Positions 32,954 through 44,569 of a stretch of 64,000 nt of DNA are shown piece after piece. The DNA is from an uncultured Actinomycetota bacterium (lineage in GTDB: Bacteria; Actinomycetota; Actinomycetes; Propionibacteriales; Nocardioidaceae), in contig CAVQDC010000029.1 in assembly GCA_963711175.1 (NCBI GenBank), positions 8 through 64,007 on the forward strand, read 5' to 3'. Position numbers and translations under genes: made by a program. Each line of letters begins with the position of its first letter. Position 1 is the stretch's first letter. Under the pieces are notes generated by a model, which was given only the letters and a program-made list of their open reading frames with translations, was not told the DNA's origin and ran no database searches.

Positions 32954-35682
<2,729 letters not shown>

Positions 35683-35888: not shown

Positions 35889-36510
35889 TCAGCCGAGACT
35901 TGCCAGGCCGGGGCCGGACAGGTCCGCCCGCGCGGCGGACCGACCGGACACCGCCAGCAGGAGGGACACCAGCGGCCCGGTGACCTCCGGTCCGTCACCG
36001 ATCACTACGTCGGCGTCGGTGGCCCGGAGTCGTACGCCGGCGGCGCGCTCGCGACCGCCACCGATGGACACCTTGGTGCGCACCTGGTGCTCGAGCGCGG
36101 GCAGCACCGCCTCGACGGGGTAGTCGTGCGCCAGTCCCAGCGGACGGCGTACGTCCTCGCCGTGCACGACCTCCTCGACCAGGCGCACGTCGAGCGGCAC
36201 GAACGGCGGGGCCTCGGTGTTGTCGGCGACCTCCCGCAGCCGGCGCAGGGTGTACGCCGGCCCGTCGCCGCGCTCGCGCTGCGGCGTCCTGCTGGTTCAT
36301 CCGGTCGAAGCTCAAGCGCGCCCGCACGATCGCCACGACCAGGCCAGGGACGGAGATCGCGCTCGCGTTGCCGACCAGGTGCGCGGCGACGTCGTGCACG
36401 GTCCAGCCCTCACACAGTGAAGGCGTACGCCACTGCTGGTCGTCGAGGCCTCCGAGATCGGCGATGAGCGCGTGGCGCTCGGCGTGGACGAGCGGCCAGA
36501 CGTCAGCCAC
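35889..36510 (-). pseudogene. Mycothiol-dependent maleylpyruvate-isomerase-like (TIGR03083-type) protein, +1 frameshift near 36281
   Basis: W.TPSLCEGWTVHDVAAHL in one frame; EEVVHGEDVRRPLG..GPEVTGP in another. Length is 3n+1. Confidence 0.75.
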
Positions 36511-37477
36511 TGGCCGTCCCGAGGTCGGCGGCCTCGGTCAGCCAGGCCCAGGCCGTGGCGCGTACGTCCTCGGTCGGCCGCGTGGACGGCAGCAGGCTGG
36601 TCGGACGTTCGACGCGGTCGTGCCAGAACTTCCCGGTGGGCGGGGCGGGATCGACCGCGCACAACCAGACGCTCGTGTCGGCACCCTGGGCGTCGTCGCG
36701 GAGCACCGGACGGGTGATCGCGCGGAACCGCGGGAGCGACTCCTGCACGCCCGGGGTGTCGGCCCAGCCGGGGTGCATGGTGGCGACGGTGATGTCGTCC
36801 GCGCCCCAGCGCTCCGCCAGGAGGGGTGCCATCTCGACCTGCCAGCGCTTGGACCGCGCGTAGGAGGTGGCCGGTGCGTAGTCGCCCTTGGTGTACGCCG
36901 GGTCGTCCGCCCGCAGCGGCTGTCCGTACATCCCGCCGCTGCTCACCTGCACCACGCGGCCGCCGGCGAGGGGACCGCGCAGTGCCTCGGTCATGACGAC
37001 CGGTCCGACGAGGTGCACGGCCATGCTGAGCTCGAGGCCCTGTGGCGACTCGCTCCGCGTCGGCGGCATCGCACCGGCGTTGTGCACGACGGCGTGGAGG
37101 CTCGGCACATCGGCGGCGAAGTCGGAGGCGAAGCGGCGTACGTCGTCGAGGTCGCCCACGTCGCAGCGCCACAGCCGCAGCTCGGCGCCGGGCCGTTCAC
37201 CGCGGATCTCGTCAGCGACCCGCGCGCCCTTGGCCTCGTCGCGCACGAGCATGTGCACCGTGGCGCCGAGGTCGGCGAGTCCCTCGACGGTCGCGATGCC
37301 GAGGCCCGAGCTGGCACCGGTGACGAGGACGTGCCGACCCTCGAGCGAACGCGGAAGCGGATCGGCGGGCCAGCCCGGCAGCGCCCGCCGCACGGCCAGC
37401 CCGATCGTCGTGTAACCGAGGACCAGCGACCGGTCCATCGCGGTGTCGACCGCGCGGGCAAGCAGCGGGCGCCCCAT
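36503..37477 (-). CDS. SDR-family oxidoreductase (DHRS12-like)
   Basis: VTGASSGLG, HNAG, YARSKR and MHPGWADTPG. Confidence 0.9.
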   Translation of the reverse strand: MGRPLLARAVDTAMDRSLVLGYTTIGLAVRRALPGWPADPLPRSLEGRHVLVTGASSGLGIATVEGLADLGATVHMLVRDEAKGARVADEIRGERPGAELRLWRCDVGDLDDVRRFASDFAADVPSLHAVVHNAGAMPPTRSESPQGLELSMAVHLVGPVVMTEALRGPLAGGRVVQVSSGGMYGQPLRADDPAYTKGDYAPATSYARSKRWQVEMAPLLAERWGADDITVATMHPGWADTPGVQESLPRFRAITRPVLRDDAQGADTSVWLCAVDPAPPTGKFWHDRVERPTSLLPSTRPTEDVRATAWAWLTEAADLGTASG

Positions 37478-37478
37478 G

Positions 37479-38348
37479 TCAGCTCGCGTCGAGCCGGGCG
37501 AGCTCGTCGTCGGTCAGCTCGATCTCCGCGGCAGCCGCGGAGTCGGTGATCGACGAGGGCCGCTTGGCGCCGGGGATCGGGATCACGACGGGTGACTGCG
37601 CGAGCTCCCAGGCGAGCGCGACCTGCTGGGCGCTGACGCCACGGTCGGTGGCGATCTCGGCGAAGGCGGGGTGCTTGTCGGCGAGCTCCTTGGCGTCGGA
37701 CAGGCCGCCGAGGGGGCTCCACGGCAGGAACGCCAGGCCGAGCTCCTCGCACACGTCGATCTCGGGCTTGCTGGAGCGGAACTTCGGGCTGAACTGGTTC
37801 TGCACGCTCACCAGGGCGTCGCCGAGCACGGCGTGGGCGGCGCGGATCTGGTCAGGGTCCGCGTTGGAGAGGCCGACGTGGGCGACCTTGCCACTGTCGG
37901 CGATCTCCTTGAGCGTGCCGATCACGTCGTCGTAGGAGACCTTCGGGTCGGGCCGGTGGTGCTGCCACAGGAAGATCTGCTCCACGCCGAGCCGCTCGAG
38001 GCTCGCGTCGACGGCCTCGTGGAGGTGGGTGGCCGAGCTGTCGACCTCCCACTCTCCGCCGTCGGTGCGGACGTGTCCGCCCTTGGTGGCGAGGAGGACG
38101 CGGTCGCGGACGCCGAGCTCGTCGAGGATGGAGGCGATCAGGCGCTCGTTCTCGCCCTGGGCGCCGGCTCCCTTCTCGTCGCCGGGGCCGTAGGCGTCGG
38201 CGGAGTCGAAGAGCGTCACGCCCGCGTCGAGCGCGGCCGTGACGGTGTCGAGGAGCTGCTGGCGGGGCTGCGTGCCGGTCTGGTCGAAGGTCATGAGGCC
38301 GAGCCCGATGGCGCCGACCTGCTGGTTTCCGAGGGTGCGAGTCTGCAT
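37479..38348 (-). CDS. Aldo/keto reductase
   Basis: IGLGLM, DSADAYG, ATKGG, GLSN, SVQNQFS and VIPIPGA. Confidence 0.92.
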   Translation of the reverse strand: MQTRTLGNQQVGAIGLGLMTFDQTGTQPRQQLLDTVTAALDAGVTLFDSADAYGPGDEKGAGAQGENERLIASILDELGVRDRVLLATKGGHVRTDGGEWEVDSSATHLHEAVDASLERLGVEQIFLWQHHRPDPKVSYDDVIGTLKEIADSGKVAHVGLSNADPDQIRAAHAVLGDALVSVQNQFSPKFRSSKPEIDVCEELGLAFLPWSPLGGLSDAKELADKHPAFAEIATDRGVSAQQVALAWELAQSPVVIPIPGAKRPSSITDSAAAAEIELTDDELARLDAS

Positions 38349-38383: not shown

Positions 38384-39838
38384 TCAGGCGTTCAGACCCG
38401 CAAGGGCGAGCACGTCGTCGGGGCCGTCGAGGTCCGGCGTCGCGACGAAGACGGTGGTCACGCCCAACCCCGCGAGGCGGGCATAGCGGTCGCGGTGACT
38501 CGCGACGGTCGCGGCATGCGTACGGGCGGCGTACATCGCTGCCGGGGTGCGGCCGCGGTGCCGCTCGACGCGCGCCCACACGTCGTCGCGGTCGCTGCCG
38601 ACGACCGGCAGGTCGAGGACGGTGATCGCCACCTCGGACCGGTCGCGGCCGACGTCGTCGCAGTGCGCGTGCAGCACGCCGACGAGCCGTGCGAGCTCCT
38701 CCTCGTCGGTGGTGCGGAGGTTGCAGGCGTCGCCGTGCTGCGCAGCGATCCGCAGCGTGCGGCGCTCGCCGGAGCCCCCGACGATGACGGGGATCCGACC
38801 CGCCGGGCGGGGGTAGGACGTCGTCTCCGGCAGCGAGACGCCGTGCGCGTCGTAGGCCTTGGTGCCGCTCGCCCACAGCGCCTTCATCGTCACGATCGCG
38901 CGCTCGAGGTCGTCGAGGCGTTCGCGGGCCGGCGGGAAGGCGATCCCGTACGCCGCGTGCTCGCGCTCGAACCAGCCGGCGCCGATGCCGACGAACGTCC
39001 TCCCGCCAGTCAGGGCGGACAGGGTCGCGGCGGCCTTGGCGGTGACACCTGCCGGCCGGAACGTGACAGGGGTGCACAGGGTGCCGAGCTCGAGGTCGGT
39101 GCCGAGCGCGGCGATCGCGCCGAGGGTCACCCACGGCTCGGGGATGGAGTCCCACGCGCGGCCGACCTGTGGCACCTGGATGAGGTGGTCCATGAGTGCG
39201 ATCCCGGCGAAGCCGGCCTCGTCCGCGGCCCGCGCGATGTCCGTGAGCCACGCGAGCGGGTCCTCGCCCCAGGGGAACCGCGAGACCTGGAGGACCGTAC
39301 GCAGGCCGAGGCTGGACGTGCGGTCACTCACCTTCTCGGGCCGGGCCTCGGGTGCCGGAGCGACCGCAACCGCCCCGGTCGCGATCGGGACCACGAGGTC
39401 CCAGCCCTCGGCCTCGAGCAGCGGACGTACGTCGCGCGCCGACCGCAGCTGCGCGGCCAGGGCGGGTGCCGGGACCGGCCGGTCGCGAGCCGCGTTGCGG
39501 CGGCGGCACTCGGAGTCCGGGGTGTCCATCACGACGGCGACGGCCGGGAGTCCCGCTCCTCTGGCCGCGTCCAGCCAGGCCTGCCGCTTCGACGCGTCGA
39601 GGCCGAGCGTGTCGACGACGGTGGTCAGGCCCCGTCCGAGCCGGGCCGCGACGACCGTCTCGAGGACACCGAACGCGTCCGCGGAGGCGTCGAGGTCGTG
39701 CGGCCCGCTGCCGACCACGCCTCGGAGCGCGTCGGACGAGACGACCTCCTGGTCGCGGTAGTGCACCGCCGCCCACGTCGACTTCCCGGACCCCGAGACG
39801 CCGACGAGCACCACGAGGGCCGGGTCCGGGATCTGCAC
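38384..39838 (-). CDS. P-loop (Pnkp/AAA_33-type) kinase fused to an LLM-class F420-type oxidoreductase
   Basis: Kinase part: GVSGSGKST, SSD, VVDT, RRRNAAR. LLM part: LMDHLIQ, EPWVTL, GIGAGW, VGGSGERRTL. Confidence 0.85.
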   Translation of the reverse strand: MQIPDPALVVLVGVSGSGKSTWAAVHYRDQEVVSSDALRGVVGSGPHDLDASADAFGVLETVVAARLGRGLTTVVDTLGLDASKRQAWLDAARGAGLPAVAVVMDTPDSECRRRNAARDRPVPAPALAAQLRSARDVRPLLEAEGWDLVVPIATGAVAVAPAPEARPEKVSDRTSSLGLRTVLQVSRFPWGEDPLAWLTDIARAADEAGFAGIALMDHLIQVPQVGRAWDSIPEPWVTLGAIAALGTDLELGTLCTPVTFRPAGVTAKAAATLSALTGGRTFVGIGAGWFEREHAAYGIAFPPARERLDDLERAIVTMKALWASGTKAYDAHGVSLPETTSYPRPAGRIPVIVGGSGERRTLRIAAQHGDACNLRTTDEEELARLVGVLHAHCDDVGRDRSEVAITVLDLPVVGSDRDDVWARVERHRGRTPAAMYAARTHAATVASHRDRYARLAGLGVTTVFVATPDLDGPDDVLALAGLNA

Positions 39839-40084
39839 GGACCCAGTGTCGCCCAGGACCGACCGGACGTGGCGGAGTCAGCGGACCGTGACGACGCGGC
39901 CTCGACCAGACCTTGTCCTGGCCTGGTGCTGCTCCCGATCGCACTCCCGGTCGCACTGCCGATCTCGACGCTAGGCACGCCTCGGGGGCGTGCGCCTCAC
40001 CCCGACGACGGGTGCGCGCAGAAATCCCGCTCGATCTTCGTCCCGCGTGGACGCATACTCGACGTACAGGGGGAGGGAGGTCCG

Positions 40085-40441
40085 ATGGCAGTCGTCGAAG
40101 ACGTCCTGCCTCTCGGGGAGGCACTGGAGCGGTCCTACATCGCGCACGTCGCGGGCCGCCTGAAGTTCCGCGTCGGTTCGATCGTCTACGTCGCGTTCTC
40201 CCTCGACGAGACCATCATGGGGTTCGCGTTCCCCAAGGAGGAGCGGGTCGCGCTCGTCGAGAGCGACCCGCGGTTCCAGATGCCGCGCGAGACGGACATG
40301 CGCTTCCACTGGGTGCACGCGACCCTCGCCGAGCTCGACGCCACCGAGGCGCGCGAGCTCGTCGTCGACGCGTGGCGGATGGTCGTGCCGCAGAAGGTGG
40401 CGCGGGCCTACGACCTGACCCACCCCGTCGGGCCGGGCTGA
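40085..40441 (+). CDS. MmcQ/YjbR-family protein
   Basis: KFRVGSIVYVAFS and ELVVDAWRMVVP; GGAGG RBS. Confidence 0.8.
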   Translation: MAVVEDVLPLGEALERSYIAHVAGRLKFRVGSIVYVAFSLDETIMGFAFPKEERVALVESDPRFQMPRETDMRFHWVHATLAELDATEARELVVDAWRMVVPQKVARAYDLTHPVGPG

Positions 40442-40452
40442 ACCGGCTCGAG

Positions 40453-40468
40453 TGGACCGCTGGGTCCA
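40453..40468. promoter_or_regulatory. Putative TetR operator 1 (autoregulatory)
   Basis: TGGACC-gctg-GGTCCA; same motif at 42872 and 42906. Confidence 0.7.
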
Positions 40469-40489
40469 CATGAGCCGTACGCTGGCGGG

Positions 40490-41101
40490 GTGAGCACACC
40501 GAGCGAACCGCGTACGGCCCGCGGCCGGGCGACCCGCGACCGGATCGTGGCAGCGGCCGCCGTCCTGATGTACGAGCGCGGTGTCGCCGGCACCTCGCTG
40601 GACGACGTGCTCGAGGCGAGCAGCACCAGCAAGTCGCAGATGTACCACTACTTCCAGAACAAGTCGGCGCTCGTCTGTGCGGTGATCGCGCACCAGCAGG
40701 CCGCGGTCCTCGAGGGTCAGCAGCCCTATCTCGGCGAGTTCGAGACGCTGGCCGGCCTGCGGGTGTGGCGCGACCGGCTGGTCGCGATGAACACCGCGGC
40801 CCTCACCTTCGGCGGGTGCCCCATCGGTGGCCTGTCGAGCGAGGTCGCCGACGCCGACGAGCAGGCCCGGTCCGCGGCGACGCGGGCCTTCGAGGCGTGG
40901 CGTGCGCAGCTGGCTGCGGGACTCGTACGGCTGCAGGAGTCCGGCGAGCTCGCGCCCGAGGCCAGGCCCGAGGACCTGTCGTGGGGGCTGTTGGCGGCGA
41001 TCCAGGGCGGGCTGCTCCTCGCGCAGGCCACCCAGCAGGCGCGTCCCCTGGAACTGGCGCTGGACCAGGCGCTCTCGGCCATCGAGGCGCACGCCGCCTG
41101 A
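40490..41101 (+). CDS. TetR/AcrR-family regulator (LmrA/YxaF-like C-terminus)
   Basis: GRATRDRIVAAAA, SKSQMYHYF and GGCPIGGL. TACGCT -10 lies 6 nt upstream. Confidence 0.92.
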   Translation: MSTPSEPRTARGRATRDRIVAAAAVLMYERGVAGTSLDDVLEASSTSKSQMYHYFQNKSALVCAVIAHQQAAVLEGQQPYLGEFETLAGLRVWRDRLVAMNTAALTFGGCPIGGLSSEVADADEQARSAATRAFEAWRAQLAAGLVRLQESGELAPEARPEDLSWGLLAAIQGGLLLAQATQQARPLELALDQALSAIEAHAA

Positions 41102-41110
41102 CGCACACGA

Positions 41111-41143
41111 GCGGGGCCCGGGGTGCGTCACCCCGGGCCCCGC
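41111..41143. terminator. Bidirectional terminator-like hairpin
   Basis: GCGGGGCCCGGGGTG-cgt-CACCCCGGGCCCCGC, 15-bp stem between convergent genes. Confidence 0.75.
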
Positions 41144-41153
41144 CGCGCCGTCC

Positions 41154-42269
41154 TCAGTGGGCGGCGATGCCGGCCGCTCCGGCCGGCAGGCCACCGGCGA
41201 CCGGGAGGGCCGAGAGGCTGCCGTCGTCGTTGACCGCGTAGGCACCGACGGTGCCGTTGCCCAGGCGGGCGTAGAGGAACTCGCTGCCCGAGGCCAGGGC
41301 GATGTCGGAGACGCCACCCGCCGCCGTGCCGGTCTTGCCGCCGTCGTCGAACGCGGTCAGCGAGCTGTCCGCGCCCAGGTCGTAACCGCTGATCGACTGC
41401 GAACCGCCGCCGTTGCCGGTGTAGGCGAACTGGCCGTCGTCGGTGACGACCAGCCAGCAGGCCGCCGCCTCGGTGTTGGCGACCGAGGTGCTGATCGGCG
41501 TCAGGCCTGACGCGCCGACGTCGTAGGTCGACGCGGCGCTCGGACCGGCCTCCGAGACGGCGAGGTCACCGGACGGAGTGAAGCTGAAGCCGAACGGCAC
41601 CGCTCCCGCCGACGCCACCGACGTACGGCCCGTGGCGAAGCCGGCGTTGTTGAGCGCGTAGACGTCGATCAGGGACGTGGCCTTCTCGGTCACCACGAGC
41701 TCGCGTCCGTCGGGGCTGATCGCGACCTCCGCGGCGTCGGCCGCAGTGCCGCTGAGCCCGCGGGTCGAGTGGGGCAGCGCCACGAGACGACCGTTGGCGA
41801 TCCGGAAGCCGGAGACGTTGCCGCCACTGCCGGTGTTGAGCACGTAGGCGAGGTTGCCCTCGACGCTGATGCTGATCGGTACGTCGCCGCCGGAGGAGAC
41901 GGTGGACGAGCGGCGGAGGCCGGAGGACGTCACGTCGAAGGACGTGATGGTGTCGGACCCGGCGTTGACGGCGTAGACGTGCCGACCGGAGTCGTCGACG
42001 ACGATGGCGCCCTGGGAGCCGAGGCCCGCCCCGGTGCCGAGGCCACCAGTGGGGTAGCTCCCGTCGAGGGTCAGCGTGCCGTCGGCGGCGCGGTCGTAGG
42101 CGACGACGCTGTTGCCAGCGGCCTGGTTGCTCAGCACGTAGACCGCGTCGGCGCTCGAGGCCTTGCCTCCCGGACCGGCGGCCTGGGCCGGGCTGGTGGC
42201 GAGGGTCGTGCCGGCGGTGATCAACGCTGCGACTGCCGTGACGGCAAGCCGGGTGGTGGTGATTTTCAT
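41154..42269 (-). CDS. Secreted lactonase-family beta-propeller protein
   Basis: Signal peptide; repeated blades (VYAVNAGS, AYVLNTG, ACWLVVTDDGQFAY). Confidence 0.82.
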   Translation of the reverse strand: MKITTTRLAVTAVAALITAGTTLATSPAQAAGPGGKASSADAVYVLSNQAAGNSVVAYDRAADGTLTLDGSYPTGGLGTGAGLGSQGAIVVDDSGRHVYAVNAGSDTITSFDVTSSGLRRSSTVSSGGDVPISISVEGNLAYVLNTGSGGNVSGFRIANGRLVALPHSTRGLSGTAADAAEVAISPDGRELVVTEKATSLIDVYALNNAGFATGRTSVASAGAVPFGFSFTPSGDLAVSEAGPSAASTYDVGASGLTPISTSVANTEAAACWLVVTDDGQFAYTGNGGGSQSISGYDLGADSSLTAFDDGGKTGTAAGGVSDIALASGSEFLYARLGNGTVGAYAVNDDGSLSALPVAGGLPAGAAGIAAH

Positions 42270-42366: not shown

Positions 42367-42843
42367 TCAGGCGTGCTGCTTGAGGTAGGTGACGAGCCCG
42401 AGTACGTCGTCGGGCATGAGGCGCCCGATCGCGGCCGAGGAGTAGACGGCCGTCACGACACGGCCATCGGGGTCGAGGACGAAGCCGGTGGACTGCAGGT
42501 AGTGCGGGTCGTCGTTGACGTAGGCACCGACTGCGGAGGCCACCTCGTCGGCGTCCGCGCTGTGGCCCACGGCAAAGGGCAGGTTCCGCTGTGCGACCAG
42601 TGCGGCGCTCGTCTCCTCGTCGTCGACCGACAGCGCGGCGACAGCGATCCCGGCATCGGTGAGCGACGTGTGAGCACGGCCGAAGGCGGCGAGCTGGGCG
42701 TTGCAGTACGGGCACCAGGCGCCGCGGTAGAGCAGCACCACACCGTACGAACCCGTCAGGTCGTCGGGGAGGCGGAGCGCTCCGCCCCCGACCCGGGGGA
42801 CCTCGAGCGAGGGGAACGGGGAGTGGTTCTGGAGCAGGGTCAT
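42367..42843 (-). CDS. Peroxiredoxin-like (AhpC/TSA) redoxin
   Basis: YRGAWCPYCNAQL; GAAGGA RBS. Confidence 0.88.
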   Translation of the reverse strand: MTLLQNHSPFPSLEVPRVGGGALRLPDDLTGSYGVVLLYRGAWCPYCNAQLAAFGRAHTSLTDAGIAVAALSVDDEETSAALVAQRNLPFAVGHSADADEVASAVGAYVNDDPHYLQSTGFVLDPDGRVVTAVYSSAAIGRLMPDDVLGLVTYLKQHA

Positions 42844-42921: not shown

Positions 42922-42983
42922 ATCTCCTTACGGACGTGTTACCGCCGTGGGGTCATGCGGTGGAAGGCGGTAGGAAGGAGGGC

Positions 42984-43832
42984 ATGGATCCCCGTCTCGC
43001 CGGCCGCACCGCCCGTCTGCTCGAGCCCCTGCACGCGCTGGGCTACTTCGCCCCGGAGGTCGAGGCCGAGGTCATCGACGCGGGAGTACGCAAGGGGCGC
43101 GCCACCTACTTCGCCTCGCGAGCCGCAGCGATGGGTCGCGTCGGAGCGGGCCCCGTCGCGGCGACGTTCTACGTCTTCAACCCATCCCTGGTCGCGCACT
43201 TCATCCCGGCAGCGTGGGAGGCCGCCAGGCCCGAGGACGTCGTGGCCGCCCGCTACCGCGGCGTCTCCGCCGCCTGGTCCCGTCTCCTCGGCGAGGAGAC
43301 GCTCGGCTCCGACGAGGTCAGGGAGGCCGCCGACCTCGCCCGTACGGCCTCAGCCGGCTGCACGGTCGCGGGCCGCCCGCTCTACGCGGCGCACGCCGAC
43401 CTGCCCTGGCCCGACGAGCCCCACATGGCGCTCTTCCACGCCCTGACGCTGCTGCGAGAGCACCGCGGCGACGGACACGTCGCGGCCCTGATCGGGTCCG
43501 ACCTCAGCGGCATCGAGGCGCTGGTCACCCACACCGCGACGGGCAAGGGCTTCACCCAGCCGGCCGCGCAGGCCACGCGAGCCTGGTCCGACGAGGACTG
43601 GTCGGCCGCCGTCGCCGGTCTGGCCGAGCGCGGCCTGATGACCACCGAGGGCGGGCTCACCGAGGACGGCGTCGCGCTCCGCAAGGTCGTCGAACGACGT
43701 ACGGAGGAGAGCGCCTTCGCGCCGTGGGAGACCCTCGGTGAGGCGGGTACGGCGCGGCTGACCGAGCTCTGCCGTCCGCTGGTCACGACCGCGCTGACCA
43801 ACGGCGCGTTCCCGGCAGGGGTCTTCGCATGA
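42984..43832 (+). CDS. SCO6745-like protein of unknown function
   Basis: LEPLHALGYFAPE, YFASRAAAMG, FYVFNP and LREHRGDGH. Confidence 0.8.
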   Translation: MDPRLAGRTARLLEPLHALGYFAPEVEAEVIDAGVRKGRATYFASRAAAMGRVGAGPVAATFYVFNPSLVAHFIPAAWEAARPEDVVAARYRGVSAAWSRLLGEETLGSDEVREAADLARTASAGCTVAGRPLYAAHADLPWPDEPHMALFHALTLLREHRGDGHVAALIGSDLSGIEALVTHTATGKGFTQPAAQATRAWSDEDWSAAVAGLAERGLMTTEGGLTEDGVALRKVVERRTEESAFAPWETLGEAGTARLTELCRPLVTTALTNGAFPAGVFA

Positions 43833-44569
43833 CCACCCCCGACATCCGGTTCTACTTCGACCCCGTCTGCCCGTTCTGCTGGCTCACCAGCAAGTGGATC
43901 CGGATGGTGCAGGCCGAGCGCGACCTGAGCGTCGAGTGGCGGTTCATCTCGCTGCGCCTGATCAACGACCACCTCGACTACGACGCCCACTTCCCACCGG
44001 AGTACGAGGCCGGGCACACCGCCGGGCTGCGGCTGCTGCGCGTCGCCGCACGGGCGCGCGAGGAGCACGGCGCCGCGGCCGTGGATGCCTTGCAGGCCGC
44101 TCTCGGAGCCCACATCTTCGACTCGCCTCCGACCGACGACGACGAGACGACGAACCGCGAACGGCGTGGCACGCGGGAGTTCCTCGCACCGATCCTGGCC
44201 GGGGCCGACCTGCCCGCCGAGCTCGCCGATGCGCTCGACGACACCTCGTGGGACGACGCGATCCGCGCCGACGGCGAGGAGGCGCTCGCACTGACCGGCA
44301 GGGACGTCGGCACGCCGATCATCCACTTCGAGCCGCCGGACGGTGTGGCGTTCTTCGGTCCGGTGATCAGCCGCCTCCCCGAGCCGGACCAGGCCGTCGA
44401 GCTCTGGGACCACGTGGTCGGCCTGGCCAGGTTCGGCGGGTTCGCCGAGCTCAAGCGCAGCCTGCGCGAGCGACCGCAGCTGGTGGGCTTCGGCGTCGAC
44501 CCCGACAGCATCGGGAAGCAGGAGGACTGGCACGGTGGCAGCCGACGACAGAGGAGTGAGCGCGGATGA
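43829..44569 (+). CDS. DsbA-like thioredoxin-fold protein (Rv2466c mycothiol-dependent reductase-like)
   Basis: FYFDPVCPFCWLTSKW, DVGTPII and FFGPVISR. Confidence 0.85.
   Translation: MTTPDIRFYFDPVCPFCWLTSKWIRMVQAERDLSVEWRFISLRLINDHLDYDAHFPPEYEAGHTAGLRLLRVAARAREEHGAAAVDALQAALGAHIFDSPPTDDDETTNRERRGTREFLAPILAGADLPAELADALDDTSWDDAIRADGEEALALTGRDVGTPIIHFEPPDGVAFFGPVISRLPEPDQAVELWDHVVGLARFGGFAELKRSLRERPQLVGFGVDPDSIGKQEDWHGGSRRQRSERG

What the first reader, a model, noticed from the sequence alone, without database searches (positions are those of the whole stretch)
38384..39838. Polynucleotide-kinase domain fused to an F420-type luciferase-like oxidoreductase
Seen: the first ~150 aa carry Walker A GVSGSGKST, SSD-x-x-R, VVDT and an R-x3-R lid. 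They join through an Ala/Pro linker to a full LLM barrel (MDHLIQ, EPWVTL, GIGAGW). Known: that motif set matches the 5'-OH kinase module of bacterial Pnkp RNA-repair enzymes, while LLM/F420 enzymes reduce or oxidise small molecules. Inference: a bifunctional enzyme that couples redox change and phosphorylation of one substrate. Options are damaged nucleoside or RNA-end repair, cofactor salvage, or antibiotic inactivation. It heads a run with AKR, SDR and MDMPI-like genes on the same strand.
Basis: partly seen in the sequence, partly recalled or inferred. Interest (0 to 1): 0.65.

Follow-up and report, generated by a model that had tools for sequence, protein, structure and literature searches.

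The report
RNA-kinase-like domain fused to F420-type oxidoreductase
This is a real and widely conserved but unstudied actinobacterial enzyme that joins a kinase derived from RNA-repair enzymes, whose substrate pocket has been rebuilt, to a deazaflavin (F420)-type redox barrel; public databases label it only as an oxidoreductase.

Summary
A 484-aa ORF on the minus strand (38384-39838) joins a Pnkp-type P-loop 5'-OH kinase to a luciferase-like (LLM) barrel through a disordered Ala/Pro linker. The barrel is closest to the Rv1855c/TIGR03560 F420 family.

The fusion is not an artefact. It is full length in at least 331 species genomes, including Nocardioides, Terrabacter, Intrasporangium and Streptosporangiaceae. 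Public records call it only "LLM class oxidoreductase", and I found no paper on it.

All catalytic and NTP-site residues of the kinase are invariant. The residues that hold the polynucleotide backbone in C. thermocellum Pnk are replaced in every LLM-linked kinase (Q51→L, T80→L, Q83→D). The domain also loses about four positive charges. Kinase-phosphatase relatives keep the Pnkp signature.

The LLM keeps the family core and gains fusion-specific Arg, Trp and Tyr residues. Separately, the single TIGR03560 LLM of Streptomyces lies directly upstream of hen1-pnkp.

Gene neighbours are not conserved, and the AKR/SDR run is local to close relatives. An apparent link to loss of Fo synthase disappeared within the family.

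Best model: one nucleoside-like substrate, or a damaged 5' end, is both phosphorylated and reduced or oxidised. The substrate remains unknown.

The scan noted this fusion type once before on other DNA (e1-3105671).

The parts
38384..39838 (-). Whole gene: 484 codons plus the TGA stop, GTG start at 39838
   Evidence: Full-length homologues at 56-93% identity in 80 fetched loci.
39380..39838 (-). Kinase domain (residues 1-153), a Pnkp-derived P-loop 5'-OH kinase
   Evidence: AAA_33 1.6e-25. TIGR04075 positions 3-156, 3e-34. 4gp6 CthPnk 3e-22. pLDDT about 84-95.
39776..39802 (-). P-loop G13-VSGSGKS-T21 (corresponds to CthPnk 15-23)
   Evidence: Alignment. G18 and K19 are invariant.
39722..39739 (-). 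S34-S35-D36-A-L-R39: the general base Asp36 and the Arg39 that orients it and binds the first 3'-phosphate
   Evidence: Maps to CthPnk S37, D38 and R41, which are essential (PMC3902929). Invariant.
39596..39610 (-). Acceptor-site signature T77-L78-G79-L80-D81. Canonical Pnkp has A-T-N-V-Q here, where T80 and Q83 bind phosphodiesters 1 and 2.
   Evidence: 35 of 36 LLM-linked kinases carry the T/S-L-G-x-D/E type. Kinase-phosphatase relatives carry A-T-N/S.
39479..39499 (-). Lid: R114 (stacks on the NTP base), R118 and R120 (gamma-phosphate)
   Evidence: Maps to CthPnk R116, R120 and R123. R114 is invariant and R118 is 99% conserved.
39299..39379 (-). Ala/Pro-rich flexible linker (residues 154-180)
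   Evidence: pLDDT below 50 for residues 155-169. Length varies, with up to about 40 extra residues in relatives.
38387..39298 (-). LLM TIM-barrel domain (residues 181-484), a divergent Rv1855c/TIGR03560-type F420-class hydride transferase
   Evidence: PF00296 9.4e-38. TIGR03560 208.6 bits against a cut-off of 231.4. fHMAD 9fp4 4e-18. Forms a separate clade, support 92/97.
39185..39193 (-). M216-D217-H218 active-site motif. His218 aligns with the catalytic His40 position of FGD1 and with the SDH motif of fHMAD.
   Evidence: Alignments. D217 and H218 are invariant in fusion, stand-alone and Streptomyces LLMs.
39845..39850 (-). -10-like hexamer GACACT, 6 nt before the GTG. This implies a leaderless mRNA with no Shine-Dalgarno sequence.
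   Evidence: NA[GCT]A[CG]T lies 6-7 nt before the start codon in 40 of 79 orthologous loci, against about 0.25% expected.
39839..40084 (.). Divergent intergenic region between the fusion gene and the YjbR-like gene
   Evidence: No LexA, RecA-NDp or SigH/R motif here or in the orthologous upstream regions.
37479..38348 (-). Context only: aldo/keto reductase 35 bp downstream
   Evidence: PF00248 1.5e-61. Found next to the fusion in only 8 of 80 loci.
36503..37477 (-). Context only: short-chain dehydrogenase
   Evidence: PF00106 6.6e-24. Conserved with the fusion in only one distant genome.
40085..41101 (+). Context only: divergent YjbR-like gene (40085-40441) and TetR regulator (40490-41101)
   Evidence: Coding frame identified by GC3.

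Best explanation
The gene encodes a two-module enzyme that acts twice on one nucleoside-type substrate.

Shown:
- The N-terminal module descends from bacterial polynucleotide kinase (Pnkp). It keeps the full catalytic machinery: P-loop Lys19/Ser20, general base Asp36, Arg39, Asp76 and lid Arg114/118/120. It should therefore transfer the gamma-phosphate of ATP or GTP to a primary 5'-type hydroxyl.
- Its acceptor pocket has been rebuilt in every LLM-linked member. Polar or basic backbone-binding residues have become Leu, Leu, Asp and Leu.
- The C-terminal module is a divergent Rv1855c-type F420-class LLM barrel. It keeps the family core and has a fusion-specific set of Arg, Trp and Tyr residues.

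Inferred:
- The acceptor is not a long polynucleotide held in the canonical way. It is a 5'-OH nucleoside, a short nucleotide-like molecule, or a chemically altered 5' terminus.
- The LLM carries out an F420H2/F420-dependent hydride transfer on the same molecule. This would be carbonyl/alcohol or C=C/C=N chemistry, as in all known F420 LLMs.
- The LLM probably recognises the substrate through its phosphate and base.
- The flexible linker keeps the two active sites close together but does not form a rigid channel.
- The physiological role is probably salvage, repair or detoxification of a damaged or unusual nucleoside, nucleotide or 5' end.
- The gene is expressed from a leaderless, stand-alone transcript.
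For: - Domain identities.
- Catalytic residues mapped onto the CthPnk Michaelis-complex paper (PMC3902929). They are invariant across fusions at 41-93% identity.
- Clade-wide switches at acceptor positions: Q51→L49, T80→L78, Q83→D81, K73→L71. These are 93-100% conserved in 100 fusion kinases, against Q/T/Q/R-K in 27 canonical Pnkp.
- The signature tracks the partner domain. 35 of 36 LLM-linked kinases are fusion-type, while kinase-Metallophos and kinase-HAD relatives are Pnkp-type.
- Net charge of the kinase domain is +0.7 against +4.6 for canonical Pnkp. This window's LLM domain has a net charge of -8.
- The LLM core is shared with stand-alone TIGR03560 members. R227, W229, Y342, R344, R428 and R451 are invariant only in fusions.
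- The fusion is found in 331 species genomes and 11 of 401 sampled Actinomycetota across several families.
- The F420 tail-synthesis gene cofD is present in 11/11, 48/50 and 10/12 carrier genomes.
- The AF2 model has two confident domains (mean pLDDT 89.6) and a disordered linker.
Against: - No substrate is identified, and no conserved neighbour gives a pathway.
- Arg39/Ser35 (first phosphodiester) and Phe56 (stacks on the second base in CthPnk) stay invariant. The kinase is 40-46% identical to true polynucleotide kinases. An oligonucleotide acceptor therefore cannot be excluded.
- The Streptomyces LLM-hen1-pnkp synteny points towards RNA repair rather than small-molecule metabolism.
- Inter-domain geometry could not be examined: pTM is 0.65, and neither PAE nor coordinates were available.
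- F420 versus FMN use is inferred only from family membership. Two carrier genomes lack cofD.
Confidence: 0.42

Rival explanations
1. It is a nucleic-acid end-healing enzyme. The kinase phosphorylates 5'-OH RNA or DNA ends as in Pnkp. The LLM takes the place of the phosphatase as a second, redox end-healing module. For example, it could use F420H2 to reduce an oxidised 5'-aldehyde terminus to 5'-OH, which the kinase then converts to a ligatable 5'-phosphate.
For: - The kinase's nearest relatives are Pnkp kinases and kinase-phosphatase proteins.
- Arg39, Ser35 and Phe56, which hold the first phosphodiester and the second base in CthPnk, are invariant.
- There is an independent association in Streptomyces. 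The only TIGR03560 LLM in the genome sits directly upstream of hen1-pnkp on the same strand. This holds in 8 of 9 sampled Pnkp-bearing Streptomyces genomes and in S. cinnabarinus CP114413.1. The one Streptomyces whose Pnkp locus lacks the LLM has no family member at all.
- In the tree, that LLM is not sister to the fusion clade, so the two links arose separately.
- Known F420 LLMs carry out alcohol/carbonyl chemistry.
Against: - The contacts to phosphodiesters 1-3 (T80, Q83, Y128) are replaced by Leu, Asp and Pro. About four positive charges are lost.
- This window's fusion protein is acidic overall.
- No LLM is known to act on nucleic acid.
- No LexA or PafBC (RecA-NDp) motif is present, and no repair genes are nearby.
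- No full-length Pnkp (kinase-phosphatase-ligase) was found in this genome. Other ligases and Hen1 were not searched for.
- The Streptomyces synteny is a single lineage. The LLM-hen1 gap is 170 bp in S. cinnabarinus, so co-transcription is not shown.
- 18 other Pnkp loci have no LLM within 8 kb.
Confidence: 0.3
2. It is a deazaflavin (Fo) 5'-kinase or cofactor-salvage enzyme. The kinase phosphorylates scavenged Fo to Fo-5'-phosphate, which the attached LLM uses as its cofactor.
For: - At phylum scale the fusion looked 10-15 times enriched in genomes that have cofD but lack Fo synthase. 6 of 11 carriers lack it, against roughly 10% background. 24 of 48 cofD-positive carrier species lack cofH.
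- The acceptor pocket is more hydrophobic and less basic.
- Fo-5'-phosphate works with F420 enzymes in vitro, but is described as artificial (PMC8859854).
Against: - The within-family control removes the association. Among cofD-positive Nocardioidaceae, 3 of 10 carriers and 21 of 63 non-carriers have cofH.
- Loss of Fo synthase is a family trait, not a trait of carriers.
- Half of the carriers make their own Fo.
- CofD already consumes Fo without a kinase.
- Two carriers lack cofD and cofH altogether.
- This reading does not explain the Streptomyces LLM-Hen1-Pnkp link.
Confidence: 0.05
3. The two domains are chemically independent. The P-loop module could be a regulatory or nucleotide-sensing domain, or a kinase for an unrelated target, fused to an ordinary small-molecule LLM reductase. 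The fusion would then reflect only co-expression.
For: - The linker is long, disordered and variable in length.
- There is no evidence of a fixed interface (pTM 0.65).
- No shared pathway context was found.
Against: - Strict co-inheritance as one ORF across several families at 41-93% identity.
- Both domains carry fusion-specific invariant residues at substrate-facing positions.
- Catalytic residues such as the general base would not need to stay invariant in a purely regulatory domain.
Confidence: 0.15
4. It is an assembly or annotation artefact, or a decaying gene: two neighbouring genes read as one.
For: None found.
Against: - One open frame with typical coding GC3 of 0.93.
- The same architecture appears in hundreds of independent assemblies, including complete genomes.
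- No split version was seen among 401 + 86 genomes.
Confidence: 0.01

Closest known systems
Kinase module of bacterial Pnkp (Clostridium thermocellum Pnk, PDB 4gp6/4jst; TIGR04075)
   Same: About 40-45% identical over about 135 residues. Same P-loop, same Ser-Asp-x-x-Arg general-base motif, same VVD, same lid arginines, and the same Phe that stacks on base 2.
   Different: It has no phosphatase or ligase module. No Pnkp is present in this genome; a Hen1 partner was not searched for. The acceptor residues Q51, T80, Q83, K73 and Y128 are replaced by L, L, D, L and P. The domain is about four charges less basic. It is fused to an LLM instead.
TIGR03560 / Rv1855c family of predicted F420-dependent LLM oxidoreductases (function unknown)
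   Same: This is the best-scoring family (208.6 bits). The conserved core is shared: D217, H218, R261, R280, W289, E293 and N373. Carrier genomes have cofD.
   Different: The score is below the family cut-off of 231.4. It forms a separate clade from all stand-alone members (92/97). It has extra invariant residues R227, W229, Y342, R344, R428 and R451. It always carries the N-terminal kinase.
Characterised F420-dependent LLMs: FGD1 (3b4y), fHMAD (9fp4), Adf, Mer
   Same: Same TIM-barrel fold family. The Asp-His motif aligns with the catalytic His of FGD1 and fHMAD. Hydride-transfer chemistry on alcohol or carbonyl groups is expected.
   Different: Only about 25-30% identical. The position of the FGD1 catalytic Glu109 is Trp289 here. 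The substrate is unknown, and none of these enzymes is fused to a kinase.
Streptomyces LLM-Hen1-Pnkp locus (seen here; I found no description of it)
   Same: It pairs a TIGR03560-type LLM with a Pnkp-type kinase, here as neighbouring genes.
   Different: The proteins are separate. The Pnkp has the canonical acceptor site plus phosphatase and ligase. The LLM is a fast-evolving member of the stand-alone clade, not the sister of the fusion LLM.

Membership tests
Pfam AAA_33 (PF13671) P-loop kinases | Profile score above the gathering threshold | tested here: met
   90.5 bits against a cut-off of 27, residues 8-134
Polynucleotide 5'-kinase clade (CthPnk / T4 Pnk type) | Catalytic set: P-loop Lys/Ser, Asp general base, the Arg paired with it, and lid arginines | tested here: met
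   K19, S20, D36, R39, R114, R118 and R120 align to CthPnk K21, S22, D38, R41, R116, R120 and R123. All are invariant or nearly so, except R120, which is 80% conserved in fusions and variable in the most divergent ones; it is redundant with R118 in CthPnk.
Polynucleotide 5'-kinase clade (CthPnk / T4 Pnk type) | Residues that bind the polynucleotide acceptor backbone and first base (CthPnk T80, Q83, Y128, Q51) | tested here: not met
   These are L78, D81, P125 and L49 in the fusion. The change is clade-wide. All 27 canonical actinobacterial Pnkp keep T80, and 22-25 of them keep Q at the Q51 and Q83 positions.
Polynucleotide 5'-kinase clade (CthPnk / T4 Pnk type) | Kinase activity on 5'-OH RNA or DNA | not testable with these tools
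   Needs an enzyme assay.
Bacterial Pnkp (TIGR04075 equivalog) | Three modules (kinase, binuclear metallophosphoesterase, ligase), with a score above 750 bits | tested here: not met
   118 bits, and only profile positions 3-156 match. No Metallophos or PNKP_ligase domain is present.
Bacterial Pnkp (TIGR04075 equivalog) | Hen1 partner gene alongside | tested here: not met
   No Hen1 was found among the neighbours annotated within about ±8 kb. The own-genome Pnkp search finds only this gene. A genome-wide Hen1 search was not run.
Pfam Bac_luciferase (PF00296) LLM superfamily | Profile score above the gathering threshold, and a TIM-barrel fold | tested here: met
   130.8 bits against 27.9. The AF2 model shows alternating beta/alpha elements with pLDDT mostly above 88.
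TIGR03560 (F420_Rv1855c subfamily) | Score above the curated cut-off of 231.4 bits | tested here: not met
   208.6 bits. The stand-alone paralogue in the same genome scores 285 and the Streptomyces LLMs score 294-307.
TIGR03560 (F420_Rv1855c subfamily) | Groups inside the family in a tree | tested here: not met
   Fusion LLMs lie on the other side of a 92/97 branch from all 30 stand-alone members. The fusion is best described as a sister group.
F420-dependent enzymes | The host can make or complete F420 | tested here: inconclusive
   cofD is present here and in 11/11, 48/50 and 10/12 carriers. However, cofG and cofH were not found in this 93%-complete genome, and two carriers lack cofD.
F420-dependent enzymes | Binds F420 rather than FMN | not testable with these tools
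   Needs cofactor analysis of the purified protein.
Known anti-phage defence systems (PADLOC) | Match to a defence-system protein model | tested here: not met
   Only noise-level hits, with E of 7e-4 or weaker.

The most novel reading that the evidence does not exclude
The LLM is a redox end-healing module for nucleic acids. It would use F420H2 to repair an oxidised 5' terminus or 5'-terminal nucleoside, for example reducing a 5'-aldehyde to 5'-OH. The attached kinase, or Pnkp in Streptomyces, would then phosphorylate that end for ligation. This would be the first deazaflavin-dependent nucleic-acid repair enzyme other than photolyase, and the first LLM acting on RNA or DNA.
Probability: 0.12. 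Interest if true: 0.85.

Novelty: new variant of a known kind. Interest (0 to 1): 0.58.

Why it matters
Both halves belong to well-studied superfamilies, but the combination has no known function, and automatic annotation hides the kinase behind the name "LLM class oxidoreductase".

Hundreds of soil actinobacterial species carry it. The Rv1855c-type LLM family, which includes an M. tuberculosis protein, has no assigned substrate.

Two independent links now connect this LLM family to Pnkp-type kinases: the fusion and the Streptomyces LLM-hen1-pnkp locus. These give the family its first concrete, testable functional lead.

If the substrate proves to be a nucleoside, a nucleotide or a nucleic-acid end, F420 chemistry would extend into nucleotide or RNA repair metabolism. 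The rebuilt acceptor pocket is also a natural example of a polynucleotide kinase being re-targeted.

Tried and rejected
1. Conserved operon. All-against-all comparison of ±8 kb in 10 distant and 80 closer loci found no neighbour shared by more than 17 of 80 loci. Those that recur are housekeeping genes: acyl-CoA dehydrogenase, galactokinase, LysR and deformylase. AKR is next to the fusion in only 8 of 80.
2. Stress or repair regulation. No LexA box, RecA-NDp (PafBC) motif or SigH/R promoter was found upstream in 79 loci.
3. Fo-kinase or cofactor-salvage idea. It looked strong at phylum level but was rejected by the within-family control, 30% against 33%.
4. NUDIX neighbour suggested by earlier scan note e1-3105671. 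No Nudix-box ORF was found in my 90 loci. This was a regex test only.
5. A kinase-aminotransferase protein (P0158) as a second partner domain. It is a singleton among 339 homologues of its tail, probably a mis-called ORF.
6. Stand-alone short kinases in five genomes. They have the Pnkp-type signature, so they are not split versions of the fusion.
7. Defence-system membership: none.
8. Literature. No paper combines the LLM or F420 with a Pnkp-type kinase, and Rv1855c has no functional study. The F420 review does not mention the fusion. Burroughs & Aravind 2016 (PMC5062991), the survey most likely to mention it, is not held.
Active-site proximity and expression could therefore not be checked.
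Full report
**Observation**

The window has about 73% G+C. The ORF lies on the minus strand at 38384..39838. It is 484 aa long with a GTG start and has typical coding GC3 of 0.93.

Pfam finds AAA_33 at residues 8-134 (1.6e-25) and Bac_luciferase at 193-443 (9.4e-38). NCBIfam matches residues 1-153 to the first 156 positions of the bacterial Pnkp model (3e-34). It matches the rest best to TIGR03560 (F420_Rv1855c) at 208.6 bits, below the cut-off of 231.4.

The closest solved structures are the C. thermocellum Pnkp kinase domain (3e-22) and the F420-dependent hydroxymycolic acid dehydrogenase (about 1e-17).

An AlphaFold2 model built from 79 orthologues has mean pLDDT 89.6. It shows two confident domains and a disordered linker at 155-169. 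Its pTM of 0.65 means the relative orientation of the domains is undetermined.

**The fusion is real and widespread**

The 120 best-scoring homologues listed from the large protein collection (of 3,564 significant hits) all carry both Pfam domains. They are named only "LLM class flavin-dependent oxidoreductase" or "SsuD-like".

A scan of one genome per species returned 331 relatives. The best 80 are 56-93% identical. They come from Nocardioides, Marmoricola, Terrabacter, Intrasporangium, Phycicoccus, Pedococcus, Tetrasphaera, Jatrophihabitans, Friedmanniella, Propionibacteriaceae, Streptosporangiaceae and Mycobacteriales.

In an even sample of 401 Actinomycetota genomes, the full-length fusion occurs in 11, spread over at least eight families at 44-60% identity. 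It occurs in 12 of 86 genomes of the window's own family. No split version was seen. One apparent split, in G165, is only a longer linker within one open frame.

**The kinase is active but re-targeted**

I mapped the alignment onto the CthPnk Michaelis-complex paper (PMC3902929). The conserved residues are:
- P-loop Ser15, Lys19, Ser20 and Thr21;
- Ser35;
- the general base Asp36;
- Arg39;
- Phe56;
- Asp76;
- the NTP-stacking Arg114;
- the gamma-phosphate arginines Arg118 and Arg120.

Most of these are invariant in fusions down to 41% identity. Ser15 and Arg120 are the less strictly conserved positions.

I then compared 100 fusion kinase domains with 27 canonical actinobacterial Pnkp kinase domains. 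This shows fixed switches exactly at the acceptor site:

| CthPnk residue | Role | Fusion residue | Conservation in fusions |
|---|---|---|---|
| Q51 | under base 1 | Leu49 | 94% |
| A79-T80 | T80 binds phosphodiester 1 | Thr77-Leu78 | 95-97% |
| Q83 | phosphodiester 2 | Asp81 | 93%, otherwise Glu |
| K73 | basic residue | Leu71 | 99% |
| Y128 | phosphodiester 3 | Pro125 | not measured |

The mean net charge of the domain falls from +4.6 to +0.7.

The signature follows the partner domain. Among the 150 nearest cluster representatives, 35 of 36 LLM-linked kinases have the T/S-L-G-x-D/E form. The nearest non-LLM architectures have the Pnkp form A-T-N/S. These are kinase + Metallophos (P0255, P0270) and kinase + HAD_PNKP (P0259).

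The chemistry of a 5'-OH kinase is therefore retained, while the canonical grip on a polyanionic strand is not.

**The LLM domain**

The Asp217-His218 motif aligns with the catalytic histidine region of FGD1 and fHMAD.

Comparing 30 fusion LLMs, 22 stand-alone TIGR03560 proteins and 8 Streptomyces LLMs shows a common core: D217, H218, R261, R280, W289, E293 and N373. It also shows fusion-only invariants: R227, W229, Y342, R344, R428 and R451. That composition would suit a phosphorylated ligand that carries a base. This is an inference, because I could not place the residues in 3D.

In a maximum-likelihood tree, the fusion LLMs are separated from all stand-alone members by a 92/97 branch.

The F420 tail-synthesis gene cofD is present in this genome and in 11/11, 48/50 and 10/12 carriers. 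Two carriers (G460, G513) lack it.

**An independent link between this LLM family and Pnkp**

The search for the kinase domain also returned canonical Pnkp genes in about 27 genomes. In 8 of the 9 Pnkp-bearing genomes of one genus, an LLM lies 2-3.5 kb from pnkp. That genus was identified as Streptomyces.

Pfam annotation shows the order LLM - Hen1 - Pnkp on one strand. One genome has a homocysteine S-methyltransferase inserted between LLM and Hen1. The same order is present in S. cinnabarinus CP114413.1, with a 170-bp gap between the LLM and hen1.

These LLMs are true TIGR03560 members (294-307 bits). In three genomes checked, this LLM is the only family member above the cut-off. The one Streptomyces whose Pnkp locus lacks the LLM has no family member at all.

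In the tree they form a long branch inside the stand-alone group, not next to the fusion clade. The operon and the fusion are therefore separate events.

This is one lineage. Eighteen other Pnkp loci have no LLM within 8 kb. I treat it as suggestive, not proof.

**Context and regulation**

Downstream on the same strand lie an AKR, an SDR and an MDMPI_N protein. Upstream are a divergent YjbR-like gene and a TetR regulator. Further out lie KatG, a lactonase-like protein, a Bcp/AhpC peroxiredoxin and an Rv2466c-like protein.

None of this is conserved with the fusion beyond the closest relatives. No LexA, PafBC or SigH/R motif is present.

A -10-like hexamer (GACACT here, CAGACT most often) sits 6-7 nt before the start codon in 40 of 79 loci, against about 0.25% expected. 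This indicates a leaderless transcript and supports the GTG start.

**A hypothesis tested and dropped**

This genome has cofD but no detectable Fo synthase (cofG/cofH). The same was true of 6 of 11 carriers in the phylum sample and 24 of 48 cofD-positive carrier species, against roughly 10% background. That suggested an Fo kinase or salvage role.

Within the window's family the effect vanishes. Among cofD-positive genomes, cofH is present in 3 of 10 carriers and 21 of 63 non-carriers. The correlation is phylogenetic, so I give this reading about 5%.

**Interpretation**

Shown:
- a conserved single-polypeptide fusion;
- an intact phosphotransfer site;
- a remodelled acceptor site tied to the LLM partner;
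- an LLM close to, but outside, TIGR03560;
- no conserved operon;
- a leaderless promoter;
- the Streptomyces LLM-hen1-pnkp synteny.

Inferred:
- Both domains act on one nucleoside-type molecule, with phosphorylation of a 5'-type hydroxyl and F420-linked hydride transfer.
- The acceptor is a nucleoside, a short nucleotide or an altered 5' end rather than a long strand.

I put about 0.42 on this model. I put about 0.30 on genuine RNA/DNA end healing with the LLM as a redox healing module, 0.15 on functionally independent domains, 0.05 on Fo phosphorylation and 0.01 on an artefact. The remainder is left unassigned.

**Novelty**

Databases record the two-domain architecture but give it no function, and no paper in the searchable library addresses it. 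I could not read Burroughs & Aravind 2016.

I rate it a new variant of a known kind: a Pnkp-derived kinase with a new partner and a new acceptor pocket.

**Limits**

The scan noted this fusion type once before, in another genome (e1-3105671).

Noticed in passing
Whole genome G000 and its family (not in the window); cofD at G000:C21:541073-542044: Most genomes of the window's family (Nocardioidaceae-like) have cofD but no Fo synthase. cofD is present in 73 of 86 and cofH in 25 of 86, so about two thirds of cofD-positive genomes appear to be Fo auxotrophs that must scavenge the deazaflavin head group. This genome is one of them. One relative (G411) keeps a cofH remnant with an in-frame TGA.
   Followed up: partly
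L119:5362-10505 (+), L121, and L171:6001-11134 (S. cinnabarinus CP114413.1): In Streptomyces, the single TIGR03560 F420-type LLM sits directly upstream of the hen1-pnkp RNA-repair genes. One genome has a homocysteine S-methyltransferase inserted between the LLM and hen1. In S. cinnabarinus, a 297-aa ORF of unknown function and then a Band_7/SPFH gene lie just downstream on the opposite strand.
   Followed up: partly
G460 and G513 (same family, genus g258): Two genomes carry the kinase-LLM fusion but have neither cofD nor cofH. One is 94% complete in 10 contigs. In them the LLM must either use imported F420 or a different flavin.
   Followed up: no
window 32954-35389 (-), 41154-42269 (-), 42367-42843 (-), 42936-43832 (+), 43829-44569 (+): The fusion gene sits in a loose cluster of redox and oxidative-stress genes: KatG-type catalase-peroxidase, a 7-bladed lactonase-like protein, a Bcp/AhpC peroxiredoxin, an HTH_67 regulator and an Rv2466c-like mycothiol-dependent reductase. 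The cluster is not conserved with the fusion in distant genomes.
   Followed up: partly
window 35995-36510 (-): The MDMPI_N-like ORF has atypical codon-position G+C for this genome (GC3 0.65, against 0.9 or more in its neighbours). It overlaps a 236-aa ORF on the plus strand with no Pfam match. Its coding status or its start may need checking.
   Followed up: no
window 40085-40441 (+) and 40490-41101 (+): The true upstream neighbours are a YjbR-like gene and a TetR-family regulator, divergent from the fusion gene. The 448-aa minus-strand ORF at 39971-41317 listed by the ORF finder is not coding by GC3.
   Followed up: partly
P0158 (metagenome protein, 434 aa): This is a single metagenomic protein with a fusion-type kinase domain followed by an alpha-oxoamine-synthase-like PLP domain. 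None of 339 homologues of the tail has the kinase, so it is probably a mis-called ORF.
   Followed up: yes
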